A stretch of DNA of 64,000 bases from Candidatus Marinamargulisbacteria bacterium (GCA_049889215.1 JBMHDV010000004.1:30828-94827); one strand, 5' to 3'. Shown: positions 1 through 54,233, numbered from the stretch's first letter. Notes: a model not told the origin generated them from the letters alone. Program-made: numbers and translations.

Positions 1-1673
1 TGTCCAGGCAATAATGTTGTATCAGTATCCTGGGCATCTATCGAAATCCAATCATTATGATATAGTTGCAAGCCATCGGATTCAGAAAATTGGATGGTTC
101 CGTTTTCTATAGCCCCAGATTGAACCGATTGTTGAATTGTAATTCCACCAGAAACCGTTAATTGGGCATTACTTTCTAACGTACCAATCGACACAGGACC
201 ATCAGAATAATTAATACCAGACCGAGTTGAACCAGCAAAAATTTGTTCCCATAAGTCTTGACCTAAAATTACATCTGTAAGATAACGACCATCACCAACA
301 AATTGTCTCGCTTTTACATTCCCTGACACAGACAAAAGATGATCTGCAGCAGGAGCGCGGTTAATCCCCATACCTCGCTTTGATTGCATCATCATGGTAT
401 AGTTTCTCGTCACGACCAGTGGTTGTGAACCATCAGAATAAAGAAATACTGAATTCGCGGTTACTTGAACATCGTTTCCAATAACAATATTTTTCTGACC
501 TGTAACATTATGATTTGTCCCCATAATCAAATTATAACTACCGTTCACAAAATGACGTCGTCCAAACATTGTGCCTAGGTAGCCGTCAACAGTATTATTT
601 TCGCCACCCAACACAACATTATATTCCCCGGCAACATCATGCGTTCGCCCACCAAAAACCACCGACCACTCTCCATCCACATAATGATCAAAGCCACCAG
701 CAACAACATTGTTCATATTATGAATCTCATGTGCCTGCCCACCAATAATAACAGAGGCATTGGATTGTAAATCAATACGATGATCTTCACCTCCAAGAGC
801 AGACGCATAATCAGACTTAACAACAATATCTTCTCCGAATCCCATTGAAAAGCGACCAATATCAACACTCTTAACTAAACTTGAAAAAACACCAGAACGA
901 AAGGCACTTCGATTTGGATCCCATAATAATACTGAACCTGAAGGTATATTATAACTAGGCAAAACATTCGAGCCATCCGATCTAAAAATAGCATTACCAT
1001 TCACATGAAGCCTTGCCAAAGGATTGGTTGTATGAATTCCAACATTACCTGTATTGCTTACAAAAACAACATCTTTAAAAGTACCATCTTCCGAATTAAG
1101 TGAATGACCATCATTAAAGCCTGGGCCTGTCAAATTTGTTAGTAAAGAACCATCTCCAACGAAATACTTTGCATAAATATCACCATGAACAGCTAATGAT
1201 GCGTTACTCGTAGCATTTTGAATAACCATACGGTTATTCAAGTAATCCAACTGGATTAAGTCATCATCATTAAATTGACGGGTTTGGTTTGACTGCTCTG
1301 CAAGAACAGAGAATGGCATATACTCAAACGGAATATCCACATAATCATTTAAAACAAGTACTCTAAGCTTTAAATCCTGATTAGATAAAATAGTTACCCA
1401 ATCCAAATTTGGATCTCGAATCATGGTAGACACTTCACCTTGATCAATTTGTAATGTTTGTGACTGAGACCAGATGGGTTGACCGTTAGCATCATTGATA
1501 ACCTCAAAACGAACATTATGAGTCCCCACCAATGGGTTCATTCGATCGCCAGCTGCATCTAACGGTTGAGATAAAGTAACATTAACTTGAAACTCATGAT
1601 TGAACGTTGACTGAGACTCCCCTATAACCATCATTGAAAATATTAAGAGAAAAACCATTAAGCGTATTATCAT
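1..1673 (-). CDS. Giant fibre-like secreted protein, paralogue D (N-terminal ~557 codons only; runs off left edge)
   Basis: Absent from the ORF track because it has no stop in the window. Hand translation from ATG 1673..1671 gives MIIRLMVFLLIFSMMVIGESQS (signal peptide) and stays open to position 1. It has the family landmarks: VGIHTTNPLARLHVNGN, YFVGDGSLLTNL, a 14-15-aa GG-x-x-N/H repeat block (ALGGEDHRIDLQSNASVIIGGQAHEI...) and GTIQFSESDGLQLYHNDW..DTDT. Its ATG overlaps the TGA of the upstream gene (ATGA). Confidence 0.8.
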   Translation of the reverse strand, partial: MIIRLMVFLLIFSMMVIGESQSTFNHEFQVNVTLSQPLDAAGDRMNPLVGTHNVRFEVINDANGQPIWSQSQTLQIDQGEVSTMIRDPNLDWVTILSNQDLKLRVLVLNDYVDIPFEYMPFSVLAEQSNQTRQFNDDDLIQLDYLNNRMVIQNATSNASLAVHGDIYAKYFVGDGSLLTNLTGPGFNDGHSLNSEDGTFKDVVFVSNTGNVGIHTTNPLARLHVNGNAIFRSDGSNVLPSYNIPSGSVLLWDPNRSAFRSGVFSSLVKSVDIGRFSMGFGEDIVVKSDYASALGGEDHRIDLQSNASVIIGGQAHEIHNMNNVVAGGFDHYVDGEWSVVFGGRTHDVAGEYNVVLGGENNTVDGYLGTMFGRRHFVNGSYNLIMGTNHNVTGQKNIVIGNDVQVTANSVFLYSDGSQPLVVTRNYTMMMQSKRGMGINRAPAADHLLSVSGNVKARQFVGDGRYLTDVILGQDLWEQIFAGSTRSGINYSDGPVSIGTLESNAQLTVSGGITIQQSVQSGAIENGTIQFSESDGLQLYHNDWISIDAQDTDTTLLPG

Positions 1674-4600
1674 TCTTTCGGCTCTCCTTCCAAATATATA
1701 AATGCCAATGTGTAATACTTGGGTTGATTGCTGGCTGTATGAATATGCTTAATATCATCATGAGTATGAGACGTTTCATTAAATGAATGCTTATGCCCAC
1801 TATTCTCTTTAAGCCTTGCATCATGATCATGGTTAAGTTTAATTTGATGTTTATGCAATCCCTGATTTTTTTTAGCAACCATTGCTTCTTTTGAGCGAAC
1901 AGAACGCCAATGCGTCTCATCTGGGTATCGGTATGATGTACCGAGACAAAGGCCCCACCAACTGTCGTATAACCAACAGTATTCCTCTGCGGGATTCGTA
2001 ATATATGTGGCCTCTCCAACTTTTTTAGAATTCGCTACATTGCCAACAGCATATGAGTCATTTGAATTGATTGTACTATTATTTGCGGCAATGGTTTTTT
2101 GAGCATGGCTATGTTTTGCAGAAGAATTTTCACCATGGCTGTGCTTGGATGTATGTTCATGTTTATAATTATCACCTGCTGAGGTATCTACTGCGATATT
2201 CATGTCGCCCACTTCAGTATTAACTTTTTCACTAGCTGTTTCACCCATAATAAATTGATCACGCATGTCACATTTGTCTGTTGTTGTTGCACTTGGTGAT
2301 CCAGCACAAAGCTTCCAGCCATCCGGTAAATCTGTCAACCAACCTGACCACATGATAATACTACCTTCAGGCATATGTGTTAGAACTTTATTTTTCCGAT
2401 ATACTTTTTGGCTAACATTGACAACTGATTTAACATCAACTTTAACATTATGCGAAGGCAATGCAGCCTCTGTGTCTCGAATATTGTAGGCAATATCAAC
2501 ATTACCATCCATATCAATAGCCAAATCAGCACCTGCATTTAACATTTGCTTTTCATCAGACATAATAAATGAATTTGGCACATACTGAGAATGACCAATA
2601 ACACCAATACTTCCTGCACCAAAAACCAAACGAGAATCTCCATCCCCTGTTCCCAAAGCTTCAATCTTTAGTTTTAAATCGTTTTGGTTAATATGAACTA
2701 ACGCAGAAGCAATGCTTGGCCCGATACTAAATTGACCCAAATTATTTAACTTCAACGATGTCCCATTTAACTTTGGGCGGAACTCAAAAAATGAATCATC
2801 TTTAAAATGTAAGATACGATCTGATACCCCACTTCCATACCCAATTGTAAGGCCCGAACTATTATCAAAAAATGATAACTCTGAATTTGATTGCGAACCT
2901 GATTTATTAAAATAAAGGCCCCCATAACCAACATACGATCCATTAATCAACAAAACATCTGTATCAGCTTGAGAGTCATATTCCTCTACAAACAAACGAG
3001 ACTGAATAACAAGATCATTATTTAAACCAGAAATACTACCCAAATAGGTTGATGAATGACCAACAACCATTGCCCCTCGAACATCAATCGTCGCCTTTGG
3101 CTGAGGTGTACCAATACCAAATCTTGACTCAACCATCACAGAATTTGGAGATGCAAGAATTTCGCCAGCTATATTCGCGCCAATCACCATATTACCGCCA
3201 ACATCAAGAAAATTTTTGGCTAAACCATTAACATTTAACGCAAGTTTATTTTCTTGCGATAAACTATGATAATGGTTGTTAACGATAAAATAGATATCAG
3301 ACACTCCTTGAGCAGATTTAAAATTCATATCACCATAGGCATTAGAGGAAATAAAAGCTCGATTATTTAATGATAATTCTGCCTGGGTTTTTGCATTAAT
3401 TCGTAACACACTATCAATGTATTCACTGGGATAAAATGCCAATTGATAATCCGAGTTCATTTGATTTAAACCAGCAGACTCAGACTCAAACTGCAATTGG
3501 TTAACTTGAAATAAAGTATTGTCATCCTGAGTGGTTTGATTAACTGTCACACGAATATCTTCATTAGCAATAACATTAAAGTCATCACCATAAGGATCCA
3601 AAAAGCCAGTAACATTCAACGATGGAATGATTGCCACATTCGTTGAAGCTATACCATCAACATCTAGGTCATACTGTGGTGATGCAGTGCCAATTCCAAC
3701 ATTTTCAGTAATCACATATTCATAGTTAACTAACTCATCATTAACATAAAACACATGCTTCCACGGAAACGGAATATTCTCCATTTCAGAAATATCACCG
3801 ATCATCTTGTTAGGCTGTCCATCCTCACCAACACCAATAACTCTTAAATTACCAGAAATAAGTAAATCACCATTAATTACCCCACCATTCATTAAATCAT
3901 TATAAAATGTTAACTGGTCCATATTCCCCATGGGGTCCCCCAACGAACTAATATTCGTAGCAGTGATCGAAATATTGTTCCCAACAAAGCCAAATAAATC
4001 GATCCCATTCGGCTTGGCCTCAACAATTGGATCATCATCATCAGCATCATACTGAGTTCCAGTTATTTTAGAAAAATGGTCCGAAAAGGATACCTTTGCA
4101 ACATTATCTTGCGTACTAACAAGTTCAAAACCCGTATCATAATCAAATGTTAAAATTTGGTTTTCATTCTCAACAACTTGCTTAAATTCACTGGTAGAAT
4201 CTTGAAAAATTTTGGTGTGAACTTGCTCCTCATTTATAAATAAGCCATCTGATAAATAAGCGCCAACATTAACATAAAGTGAATTTGTAGGTGCATTTGG
4301 AACGGGAATCGAACCAATTGCTAAACGCTGATCAACCAATTGCATTTTTTGCGCCCCATTAATATCAAACCTTATTCCAGAGTCCGACTTAACGCCCGCG
4401 AGTTGGAGTGCTGAATCTTTCACCTGTAAAACAGGTACAGATTGATTCGGATTATCCTTTCCTACCACAGGCAGAAACTTTAAGGGCGAATCAACAAAAG
4501 AAACCGTACCATTCACGTTTAATGTTTGGTCTGGGTTAGCTGGCGAAAAAATATTCATTTGTTGAGGCTTAAACTCAATTGCCGATTCATTTAATGCATT

Positions 4601-7369
4601 TAGTATTGCTAATGACTCTTGGTTGTTCGCTTCGGCCTCGATTGACCACTTTGGTTGATTTAGTCGTGAGAACACCATGCTAGACGTTAACTCACGACCA
4701 GCTGTATCCAGATAAATCACTGAATCATCCGTCAAATCTTTTACAACCAAAACAGTGGGGTCATTCGATCGTATTCCAAGACCTGCAGCTGTAAATGAAA
4801 CCGCTGGAGAAGATTGTTTGTCTGGATAAAATGTCATTGAATCATATTTAACAACAACACCAGTTTTTAATTGGCCAGCTTGTGAAAAAACACCTAAGGC
4901 TTGCCCATCATCAAGAATCATACTTCCTTTCGGATGATGCAGCATGGGCTGACCTAATTTTGAAGCATTATTTGCAGAAAGAAAGAACTCACCATCAGGT
5001 GTAATTTGTAATCGTGTTTGGTCATTCAACGAATTATAACTCTTTGGCAGTATTCTCAAATTAATCGGCGAACCAGTAGCTGCATGAAATGAAATCTTAC
5101 CATCGTCATCATGCTGAATAAATGGGGCTGTTTTTTGAGACCGGAAAGCAAACGAAGACGCTGTAGGAGTGTTATCAATCAACAACTCATCAACTTGCAC
5201 CCCAGTAGGTATAACAATATCAGAAGTCCCTTCCCCTCCAAAAAAACGAAGCGTTGAATCTGGCGCAATCGTTAACAATGGCGATCGGTTATGCGTTTCA
5301 AAAATAAAGCCACCACTACTTGACTGAAACATTAGCCCATAACCAGCACTTGAAGAATCAAATCGCTCAAATGTTTGTGGCGAAGAAATGTTAAATCCAA
5401 ACAAAAGATTAGATGGCATATTTTGATACCCTGAACCAAAAAAGGAAAGTCCACGGGTTTGACTTTGATTTAAAAATTGTACACGTAGTTGATCAGGGTC
5501 CTGAACTGTTAAACGACCTAAATAATGATTCGATCTACCCAAACTAATGGCACGATCATAGTATAAGTTTGGGGCAAATTCCTGCCAATTACTTTTGAGT
5601 GAATGAATCCAATCATTACCATCAAATACCAACATCTGCTTTGATTGCACATTTTCAGTAGCAAACGTTAAGCGCTGATCAATATTAACAAATTGGGGTG
5701 ACACATTGTAAAGTGTATTGGTGTCTTGAACCAATAGAGAATGTGTTGCAATCTCTCCGTAACCAACCAAATCGCCATACTCATAACTTAATGTTCCCGG
5801 AACCGAAGATCCATCCGAAGAAAGTATAAGACCTGATTTTAAATTCACTTTATTATCCCGTTTTAAAACAGTACCCAAACCAATCGAGTACCCAGAAAGT
5901 GTCATGACATCTTTATTCAATAGCCAATATTTATCGACAAATGACACATTCGATAATTGAGAACCTCGACCATAAAAATAATCCGCTTTTACTGAGCCAC
6001 TCACAACAAGTGCTTCAGAATGGTCCATTGTATTAATCGCTACCCCATTATCCAACATCCACATGATTTGATTCGCTTGCGTAGGTTGAGCCAATTGTGT
6101 TGAAGATTGATTAATAATAAATGACTTTGAAAAATTAACCATGGCACCATCACCAATCACGGTTACACGATCTGCGTTCACTTGATTATTATTTCCAAAA
6201 ACAAACACATCTTCACCATTAACCAAATTATTGTGCCCAATAATCGTTTGATGAGAACCGGACAGTTGATTTTTGTCAGATGCTAGCAAAACTGTATAAT
6301 TTGAACTTACTTCATTATTTTGACCATTAACATTGATGACATAGCTACGTAATACAGAATCATTTTGACCACCAAGTATAACCGAATAGTTACCATCCAT
6401 GACATGGGATTGCCCACCAAGAATTGCAGAGTATTGACCACTCAATGTATGATGCTTTCCACCAAAAACACTTGAATTACGCCCAGATATGACGATGTCT
6501 TCACCAAGAGCAACACTTGCTTGAGGAAACCCTGCCTCTTCTACACTTAAGTTTCGAGTAACATACCCAGCCTTCAATGCCCCCGATATTTGATCCCATG
6601 CAAATATTGATTGTTGCTTTGGTAGCGGAAATAATAAGCCACCTGAAGCTTCAGGTGATTTCAAAAATAACGTTCGTCCAATAACATCCAGTGGCATCTT
6701 TGGCGTGTTGTGCTGAACACCCACAAATGCTTGAGCATCAACAAAAACAATATCTCTACCATACTGACACGACAAATCAGAGTTATTTGGGGCACACGTT
6801 CTTGATAGGTTAGCCTCTAAGGAATGATCATCATTTAAACCGGACCCTTTGGCATTATAAATTCGCTTTCCATCTCCAGAAAACTTGGTGGCTTTTAATT
6901 CACCATTAATCATTAGATCTGCAGAAGTTGAACTAGCCCCCCCAATACGAATTTGACGATTTAAATAATCAACATAAAACAGTTCATCGTCCATAAGTTG
7001 TAATGTTTTATCCGTCAACTTAGATAAAACAGCCAATGATACTGACGAAATGGGTAAAAATATAATATCGTCTAATAACTCTAACTTAATACGTAAGTTC
7101 GGTTGATCAAAAACCAATACATCATTTAATTGATCAACATCCAATACAATATTTACGTTCACCAAGCCATCTGCAATATGCTGATCTTGGGTTGATCTAA
7201 AATATTCATTATTTCCACCATCGATAAATGACGAAGTTATTGGAATCGATTGTGTTGTTTGCAACGGTGCTTGGGTCGCATCATCAAATACAATCACCTG
7301 ATAGGTAATCGTTTTAGAAAAACCAAAAAGTGACATAAAAGCCAATAGAAACAGAATACGCTTAATCAT
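1670..7369 (-). CDS. Giant fibre-like secreted protein, paralogue B (1899 aa) with a tail-collar-like, HxH-rich C-terminal tip
   Basis: Long uninterrupted ORF with signal peptide MIKRILFLLAFMSLFGFS. Recurrent tail-fibre-type motifs are present (VGIGTASPQYDLDVDG; FSGDGKRI; YFYGRGSQLSNV). A YadA-head/Hep_Hag-like 14-15-aa repeat block lies at aa ~285-411. The C-terminus starts with a collar-like motif (PEGSIIMWSG..LPDGWKLCAG) and ends ..PKYYTLAFIY. ATGA overlaps occur at both ends. Confidence 0.9.
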   Translation of the reverse strand: MIKRILFLLAFMSLFGFSKTITYQVIVFDDATQAPLQTTQSIPITSSFIDGGNNEYFRSTQDQHIADGLVNVNIVLDVDQLNDVLVFDQPNLRIKLELLDDIIFLPISSVSLAVLSKLTDKTLQLMDDELFYVDYLNRQIRIGGASSTSADLMINGELKATKFSGDGKRIYNAKGSGLNDDHSLEANLSRTCAPNNSDLSCQYGRDIVFVDAQAFVGVQHNTPKMPLDVIGRTLFLKSPEASGGLLFPLPKQQSIFAWDQISGALKAGYVTRNLSVEEAGFPQASVALGEDIVISGRNSSVFGGKHHTLSGQYSAILGGQSHVMDGNYSVILGGQNDSVLRSYVINVNGQNNEVSSNYTVLLASDKNQLSGSHQTIIGHNNLVNGEDVFVFGNNNQVNADRVTVIGDGAMVNFSKSFIINQSSTQLAQPTQANQIMWMLDNGVAINTMDHSEALVVSGSVKADYFYGRGSQLSNVSFVDKYWLLNKDVMTLSGYSIGLGTVLKRDNKVNLKSGLILSSDGSSVPGTLSYEYGDLVGYGEIATHSLLVQDTNTLYNVSPQFVNIDQRLTFATENVQSKQMLVFDGNDWIHSLKSNWQEFAPNLYYDRAISLGRSNHYLGRLTVQDPDQLRVQFLNQSQTRGLSFFGSGYQNMPSNLLFGFNISSPQTFERFDSSSAGYGLMFQSSSGGFIFETHNRSPLLTIAPDSTLRFFGGEGTSDIVIPTGVQVDELLIDNTPTASSFAFRSQKTAPFIQHDDDGKISFHAATGSPINLRILPKSYNSLNDQTRLQITPDGEFFLSANNASKLGQPMLHHPKGSMILDDGQALGVFSQAGQLKTGVVVKYDSMTFYPDKQSSPAVSFTAAGLGIRSNDPTVLVVKDLTDDSVIYLDTAGRELTSSMVFSRLNQPKWSIEAEANNQESLAILNALNESAIEFKPQQMNIFSPANPDQTLNVNGTVSFVDSPLKFLPVVGKDNPNQSVPVLQVKDSALQLAGVKSDSGIRFDINGAQKMQLVDQRLAIGSIPVPNAPTNSLYVNVGAYLSDGLFINEEQVHTKIFQDSTSEFKQVVENENQILTFDYDTGFELVSTQDNVAKVSFSDHFSKITGTQYDADDDDPIVEAKPNGIDLFGFVGNNISITATNISSLGDPMGNMDQLTFYNDLMNGGVINGDLLISGNLRVIGVGEDGQPNKMIGDISEMENIPFPWKHVFYVNDELVNYEYVITENVGIGTASPQYDLDVDGIASTNVAIIPSLNVTGFLDPYGDDFNVIANEDIRVTVNQTTQDDNTLFQVNQLQFESESAGLNQMNSDYQLAFYPSEYIDSVLRINAKTQAELSLNNRAFISSNAYGDMNFKSAQGVSDIYFIVNNHYHSLSQENKLALNVNGLAKNFLDVGGNMVIGANIAGEILASPNSVMVESRFGIGTPQPKATIDVRGAMVVGHSSTYLGSISGLNNDLVIQSRLFVEEYDSQADTDVLLINGSYVGYGGLYFNKSGSQSNSELSFFDNSSGLTIGYGSGVSDRILHFKDDSFFEFRPKLNGTSLKLNNLGQFSIGPSIASALVHINQNDLKLKIEALGTGDGDSRLVFGAGSIGVIGHSQYVPNSFIMSDEKQMLNAGADLAIDMDGNVDIAYNIRDTEAALPSHNVKVDVKSVVNVSQKVYRKNKVLTHMPEGSIIMWSGWLTDLPDGWKLCAGSPSATTTDKCDMRDQFIMGETASEKVNTEVGDMNIAVDTSAGDNYKHEHTSKHSHGENSSAKHSHAQKTIAANNSTINSNDSYAVGNVANSKKVGEATYITNPAEEYCWLYDSWWGLCLGTSYRYPDETHWRSVRSKEAMVAKKNQGLHKHQIKLNHDHDARLKENSGHKHSFNETSHTHDDIKHIHTASNQPKYYTLAFIYLEGEPKE
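6137..6517 (-). repeat. Coding repeat block: ~9 units of a 14-15-aa beta-roll-like repeat (S-x-I/V-L/F-G-G-x-x-N/H...) in paralogue B
   Basis: SSVFGGKHHTLSGQY / SAILGGQSHVMDGNY / SVILGGQNDSVLRSY / ..VFVFGNNNQVNADR / VTVIGDGAMV. The periodicity is read directly from the translation and resembles trimeric-autotransporter head repeats. Confidence 0.7.
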
Positions 7370-10300
7370 GATTCTGCCACCTTTATAATATACCTTACGA
7401 CCCGCGATTTTGGTCGATTATCAAAATCATGACCGTGCTCTTCTGCTGAGGTATGCGAGTGATTCGTTGTCTCAGAGCTTCCATGTAAGCTTCCATGCCC
7501 CCCACCTTCAAACGTAATGTTATCATGACTATGATTATCATTAAAACTATGATTATGTGTTATACCTGGCTTTAAAACTGTATATTCTTCAGTATCGCCA
7601 ACTTTTGATGATGCATACGCAGTGGAGCTTGCGGTGGTTTTAGAACTAACACCACCCGATGCAAAGTCAATGGTATGCTTATGCTTACCGTCATCAACGG
7701 TGTGAGAATGACCTACTGATGTATGCGAGTGGTACGTATCACTCATTCTCTGATCTTTAACTCCACCACTAACAAAGTTGTTCTGGCCATCTTTAACGTT
7801 ATAGCTTGCATTAACAGACTTCACATAGCGCCCATCCATATTGGGGCATCCATTCGATCCATTACATTCAGCCCACCCTGCAGGAATAGTACCTGAACTA
7901 TTCCAAAGGATAATGACACCAGTGGGCACTGATTGAAATTCATGAAACCCAGATGAATTTAATCGATCTGAAATAAGGTAGCTATCTGCATGCAGGTTCC
8001 CTTTAACATTCACATCAAAGTTATCGATAGGGTCTGTATTTATCCCCACCTTATTATTTTTTATAATCAATTCAGCATTTGTAAATGAAGATGAGCCTAC
8101 TTTTATTGATAACCCTTTTGAGGCTGTTCCAATAATTGCTTGATCACTACCATGTTTTAAATGAACTAACGCACTGGTCCCAGATTTAATTTCAAGCTGA
8201 ACATCACGATCTGAATCCATCACATGGAATGGTACCTGTGGCTGCCCGCCAACACCCAACCAAGCATCTGGTGATAAAATCAAATTCGGCTGCCAAGACC
8301 CGTCACGAAAGGCATTCCACGAAAATCCATTATAACTATTAAACTTGAACCCAATATCCGCTTCTAATTGTTCGATAACATCATGTTTGTTTGATGGGTT
8401 ATTCCGCTCTATTAAAAGTGAATCATCCATACCATTGCGAAGGGTTAATCGACCATTTTTAATTGATAAGTCTCCATTGGCTATAACACGTTCGTCTTGA
8501 ATCACATTGGATGTTCCAACAAACAACCTATAGCTACCATCACCATTAATAAAAACCCCTTTAGGAATTTCTTCTGAATAACGTTCACCAACAATCACAG
8601 ACCCACTCACTTCCAAATCATAAATTGGTAAAGTTGTCGCATCTAAACCAACGCCAACATTTCGGTTAACCGCTAAACTGTTGGAATGAACCTTTTCTTT
8701 AAAACCAATTGAAACATTTCCACTGACATCCAACGTATTTTTAATTTTGGAAGAAAAAATACCCAACTGACCTTGATCATTAAATTTTAAAGCCTGTTTA
8801 TTTTGATTCACATAAAGTAGAAGGTCTGAAGAAGATTGCAGTTGTAAATTTGGATTAACAAATGAAACTGGTGTTCGTGTCCCTGTATCATCATACAAAA
8901 CCCGAAATATATTTAATGATTGATCTCGACCAAGTGTGATCGATGACCCTGTTGCACCATCAAATAGAACGGATGTTTTATCAAAAGGGTTGGATTGACC
9001 AATGTCAACCAAATACGATGATGATTGTGCACCTAACAAAAACTGAGAGTCATTTTTTATTTCCAATAACCGCTCGAAAGAAGGATCGGTAAGACTATCC
9101 CCATGTCGTCCAAATAATACAGAACTTTTTCTGGAGTTAAATCCAAGTCCATGTGAAGATCTCAAATAAATATTTTCAGATCCAACTAAATTGGATACGG
9201 TAATGCCTTCCGATGCAATGGCCTCATTTATAGAACTCGTACCAACAACCTCGAGCAAAGTTGTTGGAAAATTCGTATTAATACCGATTCTACCTGATTT
9301 GTAATAAATTTCACCTTCATCATAATAGTCAGTTGGGGCATCATCTGGATCTGGAATATCGACACTATTCCGTGTAACTTGCTCCCAACGAAAAGGAATA
9401 CCTCGAAGCCCAGATGCATCCCCTTTAATTTTTTCAGTTACCACAAAATCACCCTTTATCGTTAGGTCACTACTGATTTCCCCTCCAGAGATCAAATCAT
9501 TAATCAGTTCAATTTGATCAAATGTTAATGCCCCATCCACCGACCGATCAACGATATTATTAGCACTAACAGTAATTCCCTTTCCAACAAGCCGTAATGG
9601 CGTATTACCAGTTGCCGTAAACACGGTACCATCAGGCAATTTAATCCGATTATAATAGGGTTTCGCAGCAATCTTTAACGGTGATTCTGCGGTATTTTGA
9701 CCGCTAAACTCTAACCCTGAGGCATCATTTATTTTAATTCGTTTCACCATACGAAGCGAATTATCACCAACATCATTTTTTACATCTAACGGAAATATTT
9801 TATCATCCAACGAATTATAGATATCACCATCAACAATCATTGATCCCCCAACATCAAAACCAATCGCTTGATTTAGAATCTGTGAGATTGTTTGACGCTT
9901 ATTTACTGCCACACCATTTTTACCAACTTCCAAAGCAACATTTTCTTCAGCCGTCATGACATCAATAGTATTTGATGAATCAATCACCAATTCATTAGCA
10001 TCCATAACCATTGCTGGATAAGATGTTTGACCATCAACCTCTTTAAAATATAAACCAGACTGATTCAATAAAGTAACCGGAGCTTTTATAGATAAATTAA
10101 CCGACGGTGAATCATCAAGAAAACCAATCATATTATTTTGTTGAATCTTTAGAACCGATGCATTGTTTCTTGTTAAATCCAAATCATCATCCACAGAGAG
10201 TGTCATTGCAAACGTTTCTCCATCTGAGTCAAACGAATTATCATTATTTTCATCAACCAAAAATTCAAGGCCATTAACTGAATTTTTCGCTGCATCTAAT

Positions 10301-13089: not shown

Positions 13090-13167
13090 GAATTCACCAT
13101 TATGTTATTCCCGTTTTTTCACATCTTTAAACATAATTTAAGTTCATTTTTGACGATTGATCTGGCT

Positions 13168-13202
13168 AAAAAAAAAAGGGGTATTTTACTAAATAAAACC
13201 AC
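13168..13202 (-). terminator. Possible weak intrinsic terminator between the 409-aa gene and the giant-gene operon
   Basis: The minus strand reads GTGGTTTTATTTAGTAAAATACCCC followed by T10. The stem is imperfect and AU-rich, but the U-tract is long. Confidence 0.3.
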
Positions 13203-13293
13203 TTTTAATTAATAGCCGAACATCGTCTTTAACGATTTCTTCGAAAGTTATAAAATCAAAGAATAATTTAACTTAAAACATTATCTGAGGAAA

Positions 13294-14523
13294 TTAAGCC
13301 AAAAAATCTATTAATTTATGACATTTCTCATCGACAGATCGCAGCCTTAAATCAAATTTTTGATGAATATTCGCCAATTTTTTTCGGTAATTTCCATGCG
13401 CCTGTAAACACATGTGTCTTTTTAATGTTAAATAAAGGTCTTCAGACGACGAAACAATCGGAAAAATATCATTAAAATCATCAAAATTCGAATAAATACC
13501 ATCGTCGTATAATTCGAAAATAATGCTTGGTACTCGTGCATATAAAAGATCCGTCAATAAGGATGATTTACATAAAGTAATTGCTAAATCAGCTTGTTGA
13601 ATAGTAGATTCTAAATCCTCAGAAATAATAAATTCGTCAATTGAATATGTTTTTGCCAATCCGTAGTAAAATCCTCGTGTTTGATAGGCATTTTGTTCCA
13701 ATTTTGGATGATTTTTTAATATTATTCTTAACGGTTTTATTTTTGACAAATCACTCAAAAGCAAAAATAATTGATCAAAAAATGTCATTAATTTAAACTC
13801 ATTTTGAAAAATATTTTCAAATCTCCCCATACCTAACCAAGTATTAAAAATCGCGATGGTAAACATATTATTATCTCGTTTAACACAATCATTTGGCACA
13901 ATCATATTATCTAATGGTAAGCCGGTTTCAATAATTTGTGTTTGAGATTGATTAAGTTGATTACATTGATAACGCCAATGTCGAGAAGTGAGTTGGTTTT
14001 CCGAAATAATATAATCAGGAAATTTGAGCTCTGATGACGGAATCATTGTATTCGTACCCAGAATATTAACAGGAAAAAAATTCGGCGCATGTTCCAAAAA
14101 TATGGATTTCACATTCATTTCACGTGCCAAATCAATCAAATACATTTCTGATGTACAAATAAAAAGATAGTCAACATCATGGTTAACTAGCATCTCTTTA
14201 ACCAAGTGATAACGTGCAATCATCTCTAAAAAACAATCATTCAAAAAATCATGCATGGTATCATCAATTTCCCTATCAACAAAGTGCTTTAAATATGACT
14301 CTACATAGGTAAAATAGTCATCTCTTTCCGAATTATAAATAGAAAAAAGGTCATGTTTTGAGTATGGTTTTTGCTTATAAAAACAAATGTTTTTTTTACA
14401 CGAAAAATGTCTTGAATCAATATTTGTAACAAAATTAAAATGATGTATAAAATGTCTTGTTAGTGATTGAAAACGGTTGAAAATAAAACCAGAATTTCTG
14501 GGTGAGTACATTATCGTTTTCAT
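13294..14523 (-). CDS. Hypothetical protein, possibly a GT-B-fold glycosyl/glycerophosphotransferase-like enzyme (TagF/capsule-type layout)
   Basis: 409-aa ORF with a 4-nt ATGA overlap with the upstream gene. The C-terminal half has the order seen in TagF-like enzymes: FTIAIFNTW.. / LRIILKNHPKL / ADLAITLCKSSLLTDLLYARVPSIIFELYDDGIY. This rests on motif order only, with no confident family call. Confidence 0.35.
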   Translation of the reverse strand: MKTIMYSPRNSGFIFNRFQSLTRHFIHHFNFVTNIDSRHFSCKKNICFYKQKPYSKHDLFSIYNSERDDYFTYVESYLKHFVDREIDDTMHDFLNDCFLEMIARYHLVKEMLVNHDVDYLFICTSEMYLIDLAREMNVKSIFLEHAPNFFPVNILGTNTMIPSSELKFPDYIISENQLTSRHWRYQCNQLNQSQTQIIETGLPLDNMIVPNDCVKRDNNMFTIAIFNTWLGMGRFENIFQNEFKLMTFFDQLFLLLSDLSKIKPLRIILKNHPKLEQNAYQTRGFYYGLAKTYSIDEFIISEDLESTIQQADLAITLCKSSLLTDLLYARVPSIIFELYDDGIYSNFDDFNDIFPIVSSSEDLYLTLKRHMCLQAHGNYRKKLANIHQKFDLRLRSVDEKCHKLIDFLA

Positions 14524-15188
14524 CTAAAGTTTCCACCAACCATTAATTGAACTAAAAAATCGTTGTAACTCATCAACAACTTGGGAATCAATGGTGATAT
14601 TGATGTTGTAAATGACCAAGATGCAGTATTAATTGTTGGAAATGTATATTTAGAAGACTCTAAAAATGATTCAATCATCGCCGAGTTAAATGAAAAAGAA
14701 TTGAAACAACAGGGGCATGGCCCATAAAAATCTACCAATAATGTTACATCCGTACTTATTTCAAATTCATGGTCACAATGGTCACATTGACCTTTAAAAA
14801 TATAGGATGTCATCGGGAAAATAGAAACATAAATACTCTCAATACGAAATGGTTTAACCACCTTTTCATGTGCCTTAAACGCACCGTAAAATTCCTTAAC
14901 CACCGCCAATGAACTTGAGTGTGGAAAATGATAGCCCAACTCACAAATTAAAAACTGGCCCATCGAATTTAATTTTGTTGGCTTCATTTTTTGGATGTAA
15001 GTTAAAAAAAAGGTCAAACTCTCATTATATTGATAGCGAGAAAATTGGATAAACGCAAAGTCAAGTAACATTGGAATACGTTTTTCATTTGAAAGCTTAA
15101 AGAAATAATCAGTAGCGGCACTATAATTTCCAGCCAATCGATAAGCCTCAACCGGATTCGTTTTTCCCATATCAATTAATCTTAGCAC
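14520..15188 (-). CDS. Hypothetical protein with a helical N-terminal half and a Cys/His zinc-ribbon-like motif
   Basis: 222-aa ORF with a GTG start (ATG alternative at MGKTNP). It carries CDHCDH-x19-CPCC (GQCDHCDHEFEISTDVTLLVDFYGPCPCCFNSF). No recognisable family. Confidence 0.5.
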   Translation of the reverse strand: MLRLIDMGKTNPVEAYRLAGNYSAATDYFFKLSNEKRIPMLLDFAFIQFSRYQYNESLTFFLTYIQKMKPTKLNSMGQFLICELGYHFPHSSSLAVVKEFYGAFKAHEKVVKPFRIESIYVSIFPMTSYIFKGQCDHCDHEFEISTDVTLLVDFYGPCPCCFNSFSFNSAMIESFLESSKYTFPTINTASWSFTTSISPLIPKLLMSYNDFLVQLMVGGNFR

Positions 15189-15263
15189 AGTTCTTTATTA
15201 GAATGTGACACTTACCTACACAATACGGCTTGCCATAATTCGGTCATAAATAAACAAACAATT

Positions 15264-18014
15264 CTAGAATTCACACGTAGCACCAGCGGGTGAAATAACT
15301 GCTCGAGAATTATTTCCTGTACAAAAACATAATGCGATCACATTCGTTCCATTTAACATTTCATTTTTTGTATATAAAGATCCTGCACTATCTGCATCAC
15401 ATGGGTCAGAGTTACTAGGGTTTAATTTTAAAACATCATTAAGTTCTACTGTTGCATTAAAAGTTACAGCGTTGTTTTGAATAGCATTTAACTGTACATC
15501 CGACAGTTCAGACCCATTCCCAAAAAACTTTGTCGCATTCACGTTACCATTAACATCCAGCTTAAATGCGGTTGCAGGATCTTTGCCAATACCGACATTT
15601 CCATTCGCCCGAATGGATAGTAATTGAGATGAAGAATCATCTTTTTCTCGCACAAAATCAATGATTTTAGTATCACTAATAGCAACGTTATGAAATGTTA
15701 AATTAAAATGATTCGATGATGTCATTGTTGTATATCGGTTACTAGCTGTAGTGTCTTCCAAACGTAATTGTGGAATATTAGAGTTAGATTCACCAATATG
15801 TAACGATGCCTGTATATTTGAAGTAACAGCCCCAATTCCAACCAATCCATCATTATTTAAAACCAATTGCCTCGCGGGCGTACCATCTGAAGGTGTCATA
15901 TACCAAACTGGCACATCCGTTAATTGACTACCATCACCAACAAATGCATTGGCAGTAATGGTTGCTGACGCCTCAATCTCGGCCACATTAAGCTTTCCAG
16001 TAATTTGAGCACTTCCCTCGACGTCCAATTTATCATCAGGGTTCTCCACCCCTACACCAACATTTGAATGAATATAAAATTCACCATTATCATTAGCCGT
16101 CATCTCAGCTACCGTGTTCGCTTTGTACTTAAATAACATTGAAGAGTTTGAATTATTTTGAATTAGCGCTTTATTTTGATCATTAAAGCCAATTAAAAGC
16201 GCGGATGGATCCACTGCATTGGATTGAATTTTAATAATCGCGGGATGATCAACGGTCTGTTTGATAAACAAGGATGAGTCTTTGGGATCCGCATCATTAT
16301 TTCCACCAATACCAACCCGTTTATTTTCAACATATACTGATTGATTGGTACTATCACCTTGCCATAAACTTGAAATATTAGTGATAAATCGGCCGTCCCC
16401 AACCAAATAATTAAACTCAAGCTGCCCAGAATCAGTAATTTTAGCAGCCACAATATCGCCTGCGGACCATATTGTATGATCCTCAACTTGTGGTGCATTT
16501 TCAGGTGGAAATTTTCGATTTTCTTCATCGTCTTTAATAAATCTAGGCACATTCATATTGACGTCATTAAGACCAACCATCACCCCATTTTTAGCACGAA
16601 TTAAAAACTGATTGGCTTTATTATTTCTAAATTCATCTGTAGACGACGTATCGGCAAAAATAAACACCCCATCTGTCGAGGAATTTGAATTACCAACCCG
16701 TGAGTTCTGACCTAATACATAACTATATTGGCCATAAATTTCATGACCATTTCCGCCAAGAATTGCTGAGTAATTTGAACCGGCATGAATAACATTATTT
16801 TTACCACCTAAAATTGATGCATGATCTGATGTTGCTAATATTTGATTATTTTGACCAGCACCAATAAAGACATAATCTGACCGTGTTTCATTATTATTTC
16901 CACCGGCAATCACCGTTCCACCATTCACAGCAGTATTCACATTGTTACTTTTTCCTGATAAAACACCAGACTCTTTTACAGCGACTGTATTTTCTAAACC
17001 GCCTGCAACCACAGAATACGGTCGTGACACAGTATTATCACCACCTGCGGCACTACCATAATCGCCTGAAACTTCATTCCCTTTTCCAAAAGCAACAGAA
17101 TAGTTACCACTATTTTCAGAGCTCCATTTACTACTACTCGATTCACCAGCACGAAAAAAACCTTTTTGAGAATTCCAAATCAGTTGTTTTTCACTATTGT
17201 AGGTCCCTGTTGACGCCAATGATGTACCAACTAATTCAATATTACTATTCCCTTTAATTGCAGCATGATCCACTTTTAAATTACCAGATACGTGCAATGG
17301 CTCTTGTATATTTGCAGTAACATCAATATTAACGCCAACATTACCAACAGTGGTTACAAATACAACATCACGCGTCGGAGCATTATTGTCTGTTCGAGAT
17401 GGCGCATCATAAGGAGATAACGAATAGTCATCCAAATTAACCAATTTCAAATAATCCAATTGGTGTACATTATAGCCATCTGGACTATGAAGTTCACCCG
17501 TTGCATTTACAGAAGTTATATTTGCTGATCCCACCACCTGAAAAGGAACAGTTAAGTTTTGAGTAATGCCAATACCTACGCGGTGATTAACGGTATTTAC
17601 TTTCATCCATGATTCCGTATATTCCAATTCTCTAGCATAATCTGAATACTTAGCAACAACAGCACCTGGGACACTAATTAAGGGAACCGTAACGGTATCA
17701 TCAATTTCCTGGAAACTTAAATTTAAAAATACATCGTCACCTTTAAATAAATGATAATTTAATGGCCGCTTTTGCCCTAAAACCTCAGACACCTTACCTT
17801 GGGTGATATAAATTGTATGAGACTCATTCCAAATGGCCTCATTTAATGGTTGATCTCGTGATGTCAATAACGAAAAAGTAACAGTGTAATTTCCTTCCAT
17901 TACCCCAGTTTCAGTATTGCCCAAAAGGAATTGCACATTCACATTTCCAGTGACAGCATGCACGTGAATACTACCTAATATAAAGATACTTAGTAAAATA
18001 CGAATTAGTTTCAT
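15264..18014 (-). CDS. Fibre-like secreted protein, paralogue C (916 aa) with a Cys-rich C-terminal tip instead of a collar
   Basis: Signal peptide MKLIRILLSIFILGSIHVHA. Motifs include RVGIGITQNLTVPFQVVG, NVGVGVENPDDKLDVEGSAQITG, AFVGDGSQLTDV and FFGNGSELSDV. The repeat block reads SVAFGKGNEVSGDYGSAAGGDNTV..ILGGKNNVIHAGSNYSAILGGNGHEIY. The protein ends ..DPCDADSAGSLYTKNEMLNGTNVIALCFCTGNNSRAVISPAGATCEF. Confidence 0.88.
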   Translation of the reverse strand: MKLIRILLSIFILGSIHVHAVTGNVNVQFLLGNTETGVMEGNYTVTFSLLTSRDQPLNEAIWNESHTIYITQGKVSEVLGQKRPLNYHLFKGDDVFLNLSFQEIDDTVTVPLISVPGAVVAKYSDYARELEYTESWMKVNTVNHRVGIGITQNLTVPFQVVGSANITSVNATGELHSPDGYNVHQLDYLKLVNLDDYSLSPYDAPSRTDNNAPTRDVVFVTTVGNVGVNIDVTANIQEPLHVSGNLKVDHAAIKGNSNIELVGTSLASTGTYNSEKQLIWNSQKGFFRAGESSSSKWSSENSGNYSVAFGKGNEVSGDYGSAAGGDNTVSRPYSVVAGGLENTVAVKESGVLSGKSNNVNTAVNGGTVIAGGNNNETRSDYVFIGAGQNNQILATSDHASILGGKNNVIHAGSNYSAILGGNGHEIYGQYSYVLGQNSRVGNSNSSTDGVFIFADTSSTDEFRNNKANQFLIRAKNGVMVGLNDVNMNVPRFIKDDEENRKFPPENAPQVEDHTIWSAGDIVAAKITDSGQLEFNYLVGDGRFITNISSLWQGDSTNQSVYVENKRVGIGGNNDADPKDSSLFIKQTVDHPAIIKIQSNAVDPSALLIGFNDQNKALIQNNSNSSMLFKYKANTVAEMTANDNGEFYIHSNVGVGVENPDDKLDVEGSAQITGKLNVAEIEASATITANAFVGDGSQLTDVPVWYMTPSDGTPARQLVLNNDGLVGIGAVTSNIQASLHIGESNSNIPQLRLEDTTASNRYTTMTSSNHFNLTFHNVAISDTKIIDFVREKDDSSSQLLSIRANGNVGIGKDPATAFKLDVNGNVNATKFFGNGSELSDVQLNAIQNNAVTFNATVELNDVLKLNPSNSDPCDADSAGSLYTKNEMLNGTNVIALCFCTGNNSRAVISPAGATCEF

Positions 18015-54186: not shown

Positions 54187-54233
54187 TTATCTTGTTTAAG
54201 GCTCTCGTTTTTACTACTATATAAAGTATTCTC

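What the first reader, a model, noticed from the sequence alone, without database searches (positions are those of the whole stretch)
1..18014. Single-strand array of four paralogous giant fibre-like secreted proteins, three of them chained by ATGA overlaps
Four genes (partial D, B 1899 aa, A 1907 aa, C 916 aa) share one architecture. Each has a Sec signal peptide and an N-terminal beta-rich module ending in ..(I/V)P(F/Y)..V.(A/S). Each then has many copies of the tail-fibre-type motif (V/I)G(I/V)(G/N)T..P...L(D/E)V.G followed by (F/Y).GDGS.L(T/S)N(L/V). A block of ~9 14-15-aa GG-x-x-N repeats (YadA-head-like) sits at the same relative position (aa ~285-410) in all four. A G(T/S)(I/L)(R/Q/S)(Y/F)...DT(N/D)T motif follows, then >1000 aa of further beta-rich sequence. 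A->B and B->D are joined by ATGA start/stop overlaps, which implies translational coupling. Together these genes occupy about a quarter of the window. No capsid, terminase, baseplate, sheath or integrase gene is nearby, so this looks like a cellular surface-fibre system built from phage-fibre parts rather than a prophage.
Basis: partly seen in the sequence, partly recalled or inferred. Interest (0 to 1): 0.75.

Follow-up and report, generated by a model that had tools for sequence, protein, structure and literature searches.

The report
Secreted phage-fibre-like adhesin operon, Margulisbacteria
An uncultivated marine Margulisbacteria-type bacterium keeps a chromosomal row of four very large exported proteins built from phage tail-fibre parts. 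They most likely form long sticky surface fibres like those recently found on the predator Bdellovibrio, so this is an interesting new example of a known kind of system.

Summary
Four co-directional minus-strand genes are true but distant paralogues: D (partial, 1-1673), B (1670-7369), A (7366-13089) and C (15264-18014). Their first ~570-600 aa align at 24-29% identity (E 1e-14 to 1e-42). All four have N-terminal signal-peptide-like leaders, a ~110-aa beta-rich N-domain and a YadA/UspA1-type beta-roll head. They also carry "VGIGT..P...L.V.G / F.GDGS.LTN" units. A, B and D (from orthologues) are collinear ~1,850-1,900-aa proteins. Each ends in a T4 gp12 / Pvc13-type receptor-binding tip with six invariant HxH pairs.

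Some details are overstated:
- Strict motif copies number 1-3 per protein (5-8 with degenerate copies), not "many".
- C lacks the GT..Y..DTNT motif and the collar tip.
- Two unrelated ORFs sit between C and A.
- 4-nt overlaps occur at 8 of 35 junctions in this window.

The array C-A-B-D is conserved with its housekeeping neighbours in several Margulisiibacteriota MAGs. Related contigs show housekeeping genes beyond D, and IMG/VR holds no relatives, so this is not a prophage.

The closest characterised system is the Bdellovibrio MAT fibre superfamily (2024). Homology of the N-domain to MATs could not be tested. I rate it a new variant of a known kind, with moderate interest.

The parts
1..1673 (-). 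Gene D, N-terminal 557 aa only (the window cuts it). It holds a signal-peptide-like leader (aa 1-~20), the N-domain (aa ~21-141), a beta-roll head (aa ~280-410) and the GT..F...DTDT motif at aa 525-552. Orthologues show that full-length D is ~1835-1854 aa with a gp12-type HxH tip.
   Evidence: full length and tip from L009, L012 and L006
1670..7369 (-). Gene B, 1899 aa. Signal-peptide-like leader, N-domain, head (aa ~285-400), long beta-rich shaft and gp12/Pvc13-type tip.
1673..2392 (-). B tip domain (aa ~1660-1899). Contains the collar motif MPEGSIIMWSG..LPDGWKLCAG, six HxH pairs, and a B-specific ~40-aa Cys/Trp-rich insertion (aa 1795-1835, window 1865-1987).
7366..13089 (-). Gene A, 1907 aa. 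Its stop overlaps the start of B (ATGA at 7366-7369).
   Evidence: full-length homologues at 40-45% identity
7369..7941 (-). A tip domain (aa 1717-1907). T4 gp12 / Pvc13-type receptor-binding ('collar') domain with the motifs VPTGVIILW...IPAGWAECNG and DNRPKSRVVRYIIKV, and seven HxH motifs, six of them invariant across A, B and D.
11422..11508 (-). A aa 528-556, GTIRYFDDTFEVYKDGQWQTLQMVDTNT. A conserved beta-hairpin-like motif shared by A, B and D and absent from C.
11821..12240 (-). A aa 284-423. About 8 repeats of 14-15 aa forming a YadA/UspA1-type left-handed beta-roll head.
   Evidence: (pLDDT 80-94)
12652..13014 (-). A aa 26-146. A conserved ~110-120-aa beta-rich N-domain directly after the leader, shared by all four paralogues and by unrelated fibre-like proteins. 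Proposed cell-proximal docking domain.
   Evidence: (pLDDT 60-82)
13015..13089 (-). A signal-peptide-like leader (MNLIKSAFLLIFINCTIFSLDGSAA).
   Evidence: the only hydrophobic segment in A
13294..14523 (-). 409-aa ORF of unknown function with no leader. Part of a ~2.2-kb AT-rich insertion between C and A that is absent from orthologous arrays. Probably not part of the fibre system.
14520..15188 (-). 222-aa ORF (GTG start) with a CxxC...CPCC motif and unknown function, in the same insertion.
15264..18014 (-). Gene C, 916 aa, the short paralogue. It has the same leader, N-domain and head (aa ~300-456), then capping-loop/GDGS units at aa 652-699 and 804-838 (plus a separate GDGS-type motif at aa 537), and a conserved 4-Cys C-terminal domain (aa ~866-916, window 15267-15419). 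It has no collar tip.
18079..24565 (-). Conserved upstream neighbours, tightly packed on the same strand. They are panE (18079-19011), a 756-aa SLH-domain protein (19008-21278) and a 1095-aa protein with a FlgD_ig/T9SS-tail-like C-terminus (21278-24565). Any link to the fibres is only inferred from conserved synteny.

Best explanation
The locus is a conserved chromosomal gene array, possibly one operon, of a Margulisiibacteriota (Marinamargulisbacteria-like) bacterium. It encodes four Sec-exported fibre proteins of the same kind as the Bdellovibrio MAT ('mosaic adhesive trimer') fibres.

Proposed mechanism:
1. Each protein is exported through Sec and its leader is removed (inferred).
2. The shared ~110-aa beta-rich N-domain docks the fibre to a common element of the cell envelope (inferred by analogy with MATs).
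3. The chains trimerise into a fibre some tens of nm long (rough inference). It is made of intertwined beta-helix segments bounded by VGIGT..P...L.V.G capping loops, with a YadA/UspA1-type beta-roll head in the proximal third. These modules are shown by homology. Trimerisation is inferred because solved YadA-type adhesin heads, gp12-type tips and MAT fibres are trimers.
4. The distal C-terminus of A, B and D is a T4 gp12 / Pvc13-type receptor-binding tip. Its six invariant HxH pairs would coordinate metal ions on the three-fold axis. The more variable segment that holds the last four HxH pairs (27% against ~50% identity elsewhere) would set ligand specificity.
5. C is a shorter fibre with a different, disulfide-containing tip.

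Together the four proteins would give the cell several adhesive fibres of different specificity for binding surface glycans or proteins of other cells (host, partner or prey) or particles.
For: Real, conserved genes:
- ORFs of 2.7-5.7 kb are intact here and in orthologous arrays, in the same order C-A-B-D with the same neighbours. Each paralogue has its own orthologue.

Export:
- Signal-peptide-like leaders are present in all four proteins and in their orthologues. No membrane-spanning-type stretch lies outside the leader and N-domain.
- Omp85 and DsbD genes in the window point to a diderm envelope.

Modules:
- The UspA1 head match has E 4.6e-29 and the AF2 head has pLDDT 80-94, with TAA heads as the top Foldseek hits.
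- The capping-loop/GDGS unit is found in 14,127 representative proteins. The only PDB hit of the N-terminal profile is the capping loop of Bdellovibrio Bd2133 (8OND, weak).
- The tip profile hits Pvc13 (9QGO) at 1e-14, the Bizionia prophage fibre 6OV6 at 9e-13, the phage Pa223 fibre 9NXK at 2e-10 and T4 gp12 at 7e-5 to 7e-3 (identities of the entries).
- Six HxH pairs are invariant across three paralogue classes at 22-45% identity.

MAT definition:
- It is taken from PMC10769870.

Not phage:
- Housekeeping context on both sides and no IMG/VR relatives.
Against: - No experiment or localisation exists for any of these proteins.
- Signal peptides were judged by eye and by hydropathy, not with a dedicated predictor.
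- Homology of the N-domain to the Bdellovibrio MAT N-domain could not be tested. No MAT N-terminal sequence was available, and the PDB holds only C-terminal fragments.
- Trimerisation and metal binding are inferred from relatives. The AF2 model of the tip failed (pLDDT 37) and the shaft between the domains modelled poorly.
- About 1,000 aa of shaft has no recognisable family.
- How a ~1,900-aa trimer would cross an outer membrane is unexplained. No secretion system or anchor is evident in the window.
- The ligand and the biological partner are unknown.
Confidence: 0.62

Rival explanations
1. Prophage remnant, or tail fibres of a tailocin or extracellular contractile injection system. Under this reading the four proteins are receptor-binding fibres that assemble in the cytoplasm onto a phage-tail-like particle encoded elsewhere.
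For: - The best solved relative of the tip is Pvc13, the fibre of the Photorhabdus PVC injection system, followed by prophage and phage fibres and T4 gp12.
- PHROG tail-fibre and tail-collar families hit the C-termini.
- Marine phage tail-collar proteins hit by tblastn.
- YadA-like heads and S74 fibre proteins are abundant among uncultured phage proteins.
Against: - All four proteins and their orthologues carry N-terminal signal-peptide-like leaders. To my knowledge (not tested here), phage, tailocin and eCIS fibres are assembled in the cytoplasm and do not carry such leaders.
- No capsid, terminase, sheath, tube, baseplate or integrase family was hit among the ORFs scanned across the 64-kb window, nor in ~9 kb beyond D in related contigs.
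- Gene order and housekeeping neighbours are conserved between genomes whose orthologues are only 40-57% identical.
- The IMG/VR scan found no relatives.
Confidence: 0.1
2. A, B and D are not three homotrimeric fibres but the three chains of one heterotrimeric fibre. Conserved overlapping stop/start codons would make them in equal amounts. C would be a separate short fibre.
For: - A, B and D are collinear along their whole length and similar in size: 1907, 1899 and ~1835-1854 aa.
- The order A-B-D is conserved in every genome examined, and 4-nt overlaps are conserved in most of them.
- The six HxH pairs and the collar motifs sit in the same alignment columns in all three classes. Mixed chains could therefore still build the axial metal sites.
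Against: - To my knowledge, solved YadA-type adhesin heads, gp12-type tips and MAT fibres are homotrimers.
- The paralogues are only 22-29% identical.
- They differ by tens of residues between landmarks. B alone has a ~40-aa insertion in the tip.
- 4-nt overlaps are common in this genome, at 8 of 35 junctions.
- Paralogous fibre sets with different tips are the norm in Bdellovibrio, which has 21 MATs.
Confidence: 0.1
3. Trimeric autotransporter (type Vc) adhesins, in which the YadA-like head is displayed by a C-terminal outer-membrane beta-barrel anchor.
For: The head repeats match UspA1 strongly. Foldseek places the UspA1, CbpF, YadA, BpaC, BoaA and EibD heads on top.
Against: - No YadA anchor, stalk or neck family is hit.
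- The C-terminus is a phage gp12-type tip (A, B, D) or a 4-Cys domain (C).
- The same head type occurs in phage and giant-virus fibre proteins.
Confidence: 0.03
4. Non-adhesive structural or ice-binding proteins, with the beta-roll block acting as an ice-binding or S-layer-like surface.
For: - Pfam LbR_Ice_bind (grass antifreeze beta roll) is the only Pfam hit, and it is above the gathering score for D.
- The ryegrass ice-binding protein 3ULT is matched.
- An SLH-domain protein is a conserved neighbour.
Against: - The UspA1 match is far stronger than the ice-binding match (4.6e-29 against 4e-10).
- The block covers under 10% of each giant protein.
- The receptor-binding tips point to ligand recognition.
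- The fibre proteins themselves have no SLH domain.
Confidence: 0.05

Closest known systems
Bdellovibrio bacteriovorus MAT (mosaic adhesive trimer) fibre superfamily (Caulton et al. 2024, Nat Microbiol, PMC10769870)
   Same: - Cellular rather than viral proteins with a Sec-type leader.
[quoted passage not shown]
- Shaft units with the capping-loop motif V-G-(I)-G/N-x-x-x-P-x-x-x-L.
- Non-S74 members with exchangeable C-terminal tips.
- Several paralogues per genome that share N-termini and differ at the tip.
- The only PDB hit of the N-terminal profile is the capping loop of Bd2133.
   Different: - About twice as long: ~1,900 aa against ~1,000 aa.
- Arranged as one conserved four-gene array with overlapping stop/start codons.
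- Contains a YadA/UspA1-type beta-roll head in the proximal third.
- The tip is a gp12/Pvc13-type domain with six HxH pairs. That tip type is not among the six MAT tips solved (S74, two novel beta-sandwiches, TNF-like, C-type lectin).
- The host is a Margulisiibacteriota bacterium of unknown lifestyle.
- Sequence homology of the N-domain to MATs is untested.
Pvc13 tail fibre of Photorhabdus virulence cassettes, and the T4 gp12 short tail fibre receptor-binding domain
   Same: The C-terminal ~190 aa of A, B and D is homologous to these tips (9QGO E 1e-14; gp12 entries 7e-5 to 7e-3). It shares the collar motifs (P.G.I..W...P.GW..C.G and DN.P.YY.LAFI.KV) and HxH motifs. In gp12, to my recollection, His residues from the three chains bind a zinc ion on the trimer axis.
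   Different: - Those fibres have no signal peptide and attach by their N-termini to a baseplate.
- The proteins here are exported, and no tail-like particle genes are nearby.
- Six HxH pairs are conserved here. By number, that resembles the multi-iron needle of T4 gp37 (from memory). No sequence match to gp37 was found.
Trimeric autotransporter adhesins (YadA, UspA1, CbpF)
   Same: The head block of ~8 repeats of 14-16 aa is homologous to TAA heads in sequence and in predicted fold.
   Different: There is no C-terminal beta-barrel anchor and no coiled-coil stalk or neck. The head lies near the N-terminus, which is predicted to be cell-proximal, rather than at the distal end.
S74-type phage and giant-virus fibre proteins (T5 pb1, K1F endosialidase stalk, 'LbR_YadA-like' uncultured phage proteins)
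   Same: They share the capping-loop beta-helix units and, in many uncultured phage proteins, the same YadA-like beta-roll.
   Different: There is no Peptidase_S74 intramolecular chaperone domain here. The proteins are cellular and exported.

Membership tests
MAT fibre superfamily (Bdellovibrio) | N-terminal Sec signal peptide | tested here: met
   All four paralogues and their orthologues start with K/R-containing n-regions and 12-16 hydrophobic residues. Apart from one further window at aa 96-98 in B, this is the only hydrophobic segment. Judged by heuristics, not by a dedicated predictor.
MAT fibre superfamily (Bdellovibrio) | [quoted passage not shown] | tested here: inconclusive
   A ~110-120-aa beta-rich domain is present at that position in all four proteins. 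The AF2 model is mostly beta-strand with one short helix (pLDDT 60-82). It recurs at the N-terminus of unrelated fibre-like proteins. Homology to the Bdellovibrio domain itself could not be tested, because no MAT N-terminal sequence or structure was available.
MAT fibre superfamily (Bdellovibrio) | Trimeric beta-helix shaft with capping loops, consensus V-G-G/N-pi-x-x-P-x-x-x-L | tested here: met
   The motif is present: 1-3 clear copies and 5-8 HMM-detected copies per protein. The weak single PDB hit is the Bd2133 capping loop. The trimeric beta-helix structure itself was not shown.
MAT fibre superfamily (Bdellovibrio) | Variable C-terminal tip (S74 or non-S74 adhesive domain) | tested here: met
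   A, B and D have a gp12/Pvc13-type tip. C has a different 4-Cys tip. There is no S74 domain.
MAT fibre superfamily (Bdellovibrio) | Surface localisation and fibre formation | not testable with these tools
   Needs EM, proteomics or localisation experiments.
Trimeric autotransporter adhesins (type Vc) | YadA-like head repeats | tested here: met
   UspA1 3PR7 at E 4.6e-29 (profile). Foldseek top hits are TAA heads.
Trimeric autotransporter adhesins (type Vc) | C-terminal YadA-type beta-barrel membrane anchor | tested here: not met
   No anchor family appears in the Pfam or NCBIfam scans. The C-termini are gp12-type tips or a 4-Cys domain.
Phage / tailocin / eCIS tail fibre module | gp12-type or collar-type receptor-binding tip | tested here: met
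   PDB profile hits to Pvc13, 6OV6, 9NXK and T4 gp12. PHROG tail-collar families also hit.
Phage / tailocin / eCIS tail fibre module | Embedded among phage-tail or virion structural genes, or found in viral contigs | tested here: not met
   Housekeeping genes lie on both sides. Synteny is conserved across species. IMG/VR holds no relative. The rest of the genome was not available.
Phage / tailocin / eCIS tail fibre module | Cytoplasmic assembly (no export signal) | tested here: not met
   Signal-peptide-like leaders are conserved in all paralogues and orthologues.
Peptidase_S74 fibre proteins | C-terminal S74 intramolecular chaperone/protease domain | tested here: not met
   The four proteins have no PF13884 hit. 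Only distant database relatives carry it.

The most novel reading that the evidence does not exclude
A, B and D may be the three chains of a single heterotrimeric ~1,900-aa fibre. They are collinear, similar in length and encoded in a conserved order, mostly with overlapping stop/start codons. Their six HxH pairs are in register, so the chains could jointly build axial metal sites. To my knowledge this would be the first heterotrimeric phage-type fibre. If so, Margulisbacteria display one elaborate attachment organelle rather than a set of alternative adhesins.
Probability: 0.1. Interest if true: 0.8.

Novelty: new variant of a known kind. Interest (0 to 1): 0.42.

Why it matters
- Marine Margulisbacteria are uncultivated and their way of life is largely unknown. 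Some relatives are ectosymbionts (my recollection) or intracellular symbionts of animals (the latter is only hinted at by papers listed). A conserved array that devotes ~20 kb to exported fibres with phage-type receptor-binding tips would suggest these cells attach to other cells or surfaces. It also gives concrete proteins to look for by cryo-ET, FISH-EM or glycan arrays.
- If the MAT relationship holds, it would extend the recently described MAT-type "cellular phage-fibre" adhesins beyond predatory Bdellovibrio. The extended form is twice as long and joins a YadA-type head to a gp12/Pvc13-type multi-HxH tip.
- The ~110-aa N-domain is widespread and absent from Pfam. It is a candidate generic docking domain whose envelope partner is unknown.

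Tried and rejected
- Exact look-up of protein B in the contig index found nothing. The window comes from an assembly not held there. The two near-identical ENA contigs (L001 at 98.6%, L005 at 93.9%) contain many indels, so the giant genes appear only as fragments.
With D plus its orthologue it returned a single Margulisiibacteriota contig that again ends inside D.
- The third homology search, with an N-domain-only profile meant to reach named Bdellovibrio MATs, returned one hit because of the word-index limit. Two cluster look-ups of 20 N-domain-bearing representatives gave no organism names. The supplements of the MAT paper held no usable sequences. MAT membership of the N-domain therefore stays untested.
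- AF2 of the A tip (aa 1660-1907, 5-sequence alignment) gave pLDDT 37 and was not used. In the N-terminal model the segments between the N-domain, the head and the hairpin were below 50.
- Pfam found no Collar, YadA_head or S74 domain at E<0.01. NCBIfam and PADLOC found nothing for the fibre proteins.
- The promoter and terminator scans gave fewer sites than shuffled sequence and were uninformative.
- The two inserted ORFs had no credible hit in Pfam, NCBIfam, PHROGs, PADLOC or the PDB.
- A TAA reading was considered and rejected because there is no anchor. An ice-binding reading was rejected because the match is minor and weaker. A prophage reading was rejected on the leaders, the conserved housekeeping synteny and the absence of viral relatives.

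Full report
**1. What is in the sequence**

The region holds only minus-strand genes:
- D: 1-1673, cut by the window edge, first 557 aa present.
- B: 1670-7369, 1899 aa.
- A: 7366-13089, 1907 aa.
- Two small ORFs: 13294-14523 (409 aa) and 14520-15188 (222 aa).
- C: 15264-18014, 916 aa.

The A/B and B/D junctions are exact ATGA overlaps preceded by purine-rich SD-like runs. Such 4-nt overlaps occur at 8 of 35 consecutive minus-strand junctions in the window. They are therefore a habit of this compact genome and not a special signature. They are conserved at the same junctions in orthologous arrays L002 and L012 (and at A/B in L003); L009 has 1-nt overlaps.

**2. Paralogy**

BLASTP aligns the first ~570-600 aa of all four proteins at 24-29% identity, with E from 1e-14 to 4e-42. 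A and B also align in the middle and at the C-terminus. A multiple alignment with proteins from two other metagenome-assembled genomes shows that each paralogue has its own orthologue (for example D against D' at 49%). The duplication therefore predates these species. D orthologues recovered whole from L009 and L012 (1835 and 1854 aa) are collinear with A and B from end to end.

So there are three collinear giants and one short form.

**3. Modules, from N- to C-terminus**

(a) Leader. Each protein starts with a K/R-containing stretch followed by 12-16 hydrophobic residues. This is the only hydrophobic segment in A, C and D; B has one further window at aa 96-98. It is conserved in kind across orthologues.

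(b) N-domain. A ~110-120-aa beta-rich domain ends in an invariant Pro and a (S/Y)(V/I/M)P..V motif.
- AF2 models it as a mostly beta-strand domain with one short helix, at pLDDT 60-82.
- Foldseek finds no significant PDB match for it.
- A profile search of 1.84 billion representative proteins finds the same domain at the N-terminus of otherwise different fibre-like proteins of 700-4,700 aa.
- Pfam has no model for it.

(c) Capping-loop units. Units of "VGIGT..P...L.V.G" are followed by "F.GDGS.LTN".
- Strict patterns occur 0-1 times and relaxed patterns 1-3 times per protein.
- An HMM of the unit finds 5-8 copies per protein (7-8 in C and A, counting degenerate copies and a few spurious or fragmentary hits).
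- The unit is extremely common. 14,127 representatives match at E<1e-3, some with up to 38 copies in proteins of 6,000 aa.

(d) Head. About 8 repeats of 14-16 aa (GG-x-x-N) lie at aa ~285-420.
- They match the Moraxella UspA1 head at E 4.6e-29 with the profile.
- AF2 gives pLDDT 80-94. Foldseek ranks the UspA1, CbpF, YadA, BpaC and BoaA heads first.
- The Pfam hit is LbR_Ice_bind.
- The same beta-roll is frequent in uncultured phage and giant-virus proteins, several annotated as fibre-type.

(e) Hairpin-like motif. GT(I/L)xY...W..(L/I)..DT(N/D)T occurs in A, B and D only.

(f) Shaft. About 1,000-1,100 aa of beta-rich sequence has no recognisable family. It is conserved among orthologues at ~40-60% column identity.

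(g) Tip. The last ~190 aa of A, B and D match several phage fibre families.
- PHROG tail-fibre and tail-collar families hit the tips (A and B at 1e-6; the D orthologue at 1e-12 to 3e-14).
- Marine phage tail-collar proteins hit by tblastn.
- As a nine-sequence profile, the tip hits solved structures: 9QGO (E 1e-14), 6OV6 (9e-13), 9NXK (2e-10), and T4 gp12 in four entries (7e-5 to 7e-3).
- According to the papers that cite them, 9QGO is the Pvc13 fibre of a Photorhabdus contractile injection system and 6OV6 is a prophage tail fibre of Bizionia. 9NXK is a tail-fibre entry cited in a cryo-EM study of Pseudomonas phage Pa223.
- Six HxH pairs plus one more His, and the motifs P.G.I..W...P.GW..C.G and DN.P.YY.LAFI.KV, are invariant across the three paralogue classes at only 22-45% identity.
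- The segment that holds the last four HxH pairs is the least conserved part of A (27%).

C instead ends, after two further capping-loop units, in a ~50-aa domain with four Cys. One Cys is invariant in the alignment and the others recur in the full-length orthologues.

**4. Context and organism**

The rest of the window is ordinary chromosome. It includes:
- panE, an SLH-domain protein, a 1095-aa protein and yebC;
- a tRNA methyltransferase;
- hrcA-grpE-dnaK-dnaJ;
- a TsaD-family protein, peptidases and pfk;
- an mfd-like TRCF helicase and efp;
- dsbD, an Omp85-family protein and argH.

There are no tRNA genes. None of the 31 window ORFs scanned hit a phage family (11 had no hit at all, and not every ORF of the window was scanned).

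Full-length homologues of A (40-45% identity) are few. The one that carries an organism name comes from a Candidatus Margulisiibacteriota MAG, and two others lie on contigs with the same synteny. A C-type homologue comes from a Marinamargulisbacteria single-cell genome.

In these genomes the order yebC / ~1,100-aa protein / SLH protein / panE / C / A / B / D is the same.

The part of the contig left of the window was recovered from two ENA contigs. One is a 94%-identical error-rich copy (L005). The other is a sister species (L006, with D 57% identical). In L006, D is the last fibre gene and is followed by two convergent unknown ORFs, then MTHFR, dxs, DUF212, ispA and xseA. The noisier L005 shows dxs, DUF212 and a polyprenyl synthase in the same position.

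A scan of IMG/VR with the A-type alignment found no relative.

**5. Interpretation**

The modules are of the types found in phage fibres, but the proteins are exported and chromosomal.

The closest characterised system is the MAT superfamily of Bdellovibrio (PMC10769870). It comprises 21 paralogous, surface-located trimeric fibres. Each has:
- a signal peptide;
- a conserved ~130-aa beta-rich N-domain, proposed to bind a surface element of the predator;
- intertwined beta-helix shafts with V-G-G/N-pi-x-x-P-x-x-x-L capping loops;
- swappable C-terminal tips that bind prey glycans.

The proteins here show each sequence-level feature. The only PDB hit of their N-terminal profile is the capping loop of MAT Bd2133, though the hit is weak (E 1.5). 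I could not obtain a MAT N-terminal sequence, so homology of the N-domain, and hence strict membership, is untested.

Differences from MATs are the doubled length, the YadA-type head, the gp12/Pvc13-type multi-HxH tip and the conserved gene array.

I therefore propose trimeric adhesive surface fibres, with these steps marked as inference:
- Fibre length: some tens of nm. This is a rough extrapolation from 142 Å for 370 aa of Bd2133.
- Docking: by the N-domain.
- Ligand binding: at the distal tips, stabilised by axial metal ions held by the HxH pairs, as I recall for T4 gp12.
- Several specificities: from the divergent tips of A, B, D and C.

**6. Weak points**

- No localisation data exist.
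- No route across the outer membrane is evident. The Omp85 gene in the window suggests the cell has one.
- The shaft is unassigned.
- The tip model failed.
- The signal peptides were not checked with a dedicated predictor.

**7. Rivals**

- Prophage, tailocin or eCIS fibre reading. It is disfavoured by the leaders, the conserved housekeeping synteny and the lack of viral relatives. It cannot be fully excluded without the whole genome.
- TAA reading. It fails on the missing anchor.
- Ice-binding or S-layer reading. It rests on a minor, weaker match.
- Heterotrimer reading. A, B and D could form one heterotrimer. This is suggested by collinearity, similar length, conserved order and overlaps, and HxH pairs in register. 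It runs against every solved relative being a homotrimer and against length differences between the paralogues.

**8. Novelty and score**

The architecture has a characterised precedent (2024), and its building blocks are very widespread. It is not categorically new. No paper in the searched library describes it for Margulisbacteria.

The particular combination appears restricted to a handful of marine metagenomic lineages. That combination is ~1,900 aa, a YadA-type head, a six-HxH gp12-type tip and a conserved four-gene array.

I rate it a new variant of a known kind, with interest about 0.4.

Noticed in passing
window 13090-15263 (minus strand): Two ORFs (409 aa, and 222 aa with a CxxC...CPCC motif) lie between fibre genes C and A in this genome and its near-identical copies. 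They are absent from the four other orthologous arrays examined, where C is followed directly by A. GC is 0.26-0.34 here against 0.37-0.38 in the fibre genes, which looks like a foreign insertion. No credible hit in Pfam, NCBIfam, PHROGs, PADLOC or the PDB.
   Followed up: partly
window 18079-24565 (minus strand): A 1095-aa protein with a FlgD_ig / T9SS-sorting-tail-like C-terminus (below the family cut-offs) and a 756-aa protein with Glucodextran_B and two SLH domains are packed against panE with 1-4-nt overlaps. They are syntenic with the fibre array in every related genome. They could be envelope partners of the fibres, but nothing links them beyond position.
   Followed up: partly
L001 (ENA ERZ28548060 contig_16014) and L005 (ENA ERZ28548055 contig_27901): Two public long contigs are 98.6% and 93.9% identical to the window but carry many indels. 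The giant genes are therefore called as strings of 50-500-aa fragments (for example P0001, P0023, P0124). Public protein databases thus hold only pieces of these proteins for this species.
   Followed up: yes
L002, L003, L004; P0019, P0020: Contigs of several independent Margulisiibacteriota MAGs end inside gene B or D of the array. This suggests an assembly problem there, from paralogous repeats or strain variation.
   Followed up: no
window 1865-1987 (B aa 1795-1835): B and its orthologues carry a ~40-aa Cys/Trp-rich insertion (EEYCWLYDSWWGLCLG...) between the third and fourth HxH pairs of the tip. A and D lack it.
   Followed up: partly
(database hits, not in the window): The capping-loop/GDGS unit and the beta-roll head also hit eukaryotic entries (EukProt 'INCI' proteins of 1,900-3,200 aa and a 2,919-aa Balamuthia mandrillaris protein). 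They also hit bacterial giants of up to ~6,100 aa with 20-38 copies of the unit.
   Followed up: no
window 52330-57136 (plus strand): A DsbD-type thiol:disulfide interchange protein, a sodium:alanine symporter and a short (321-aa) Omp85-superfamily protein are encoded together. The Omp85 gene suggests a diderm envelope. DsbD fits the presence of exported disulfide-containing proteins such as the 4-Cys tip of C.
   Followed up: no
whole window: Nearly all genes lie on the minus strand, with negative GC skew throughout. 8 of 35 consecutive minus-strand junctions are 4-nt (ATGA/TTGA) overlaps, which indicates a compact genome with widespread overlapping stop/start codons.
   Followed up: partly
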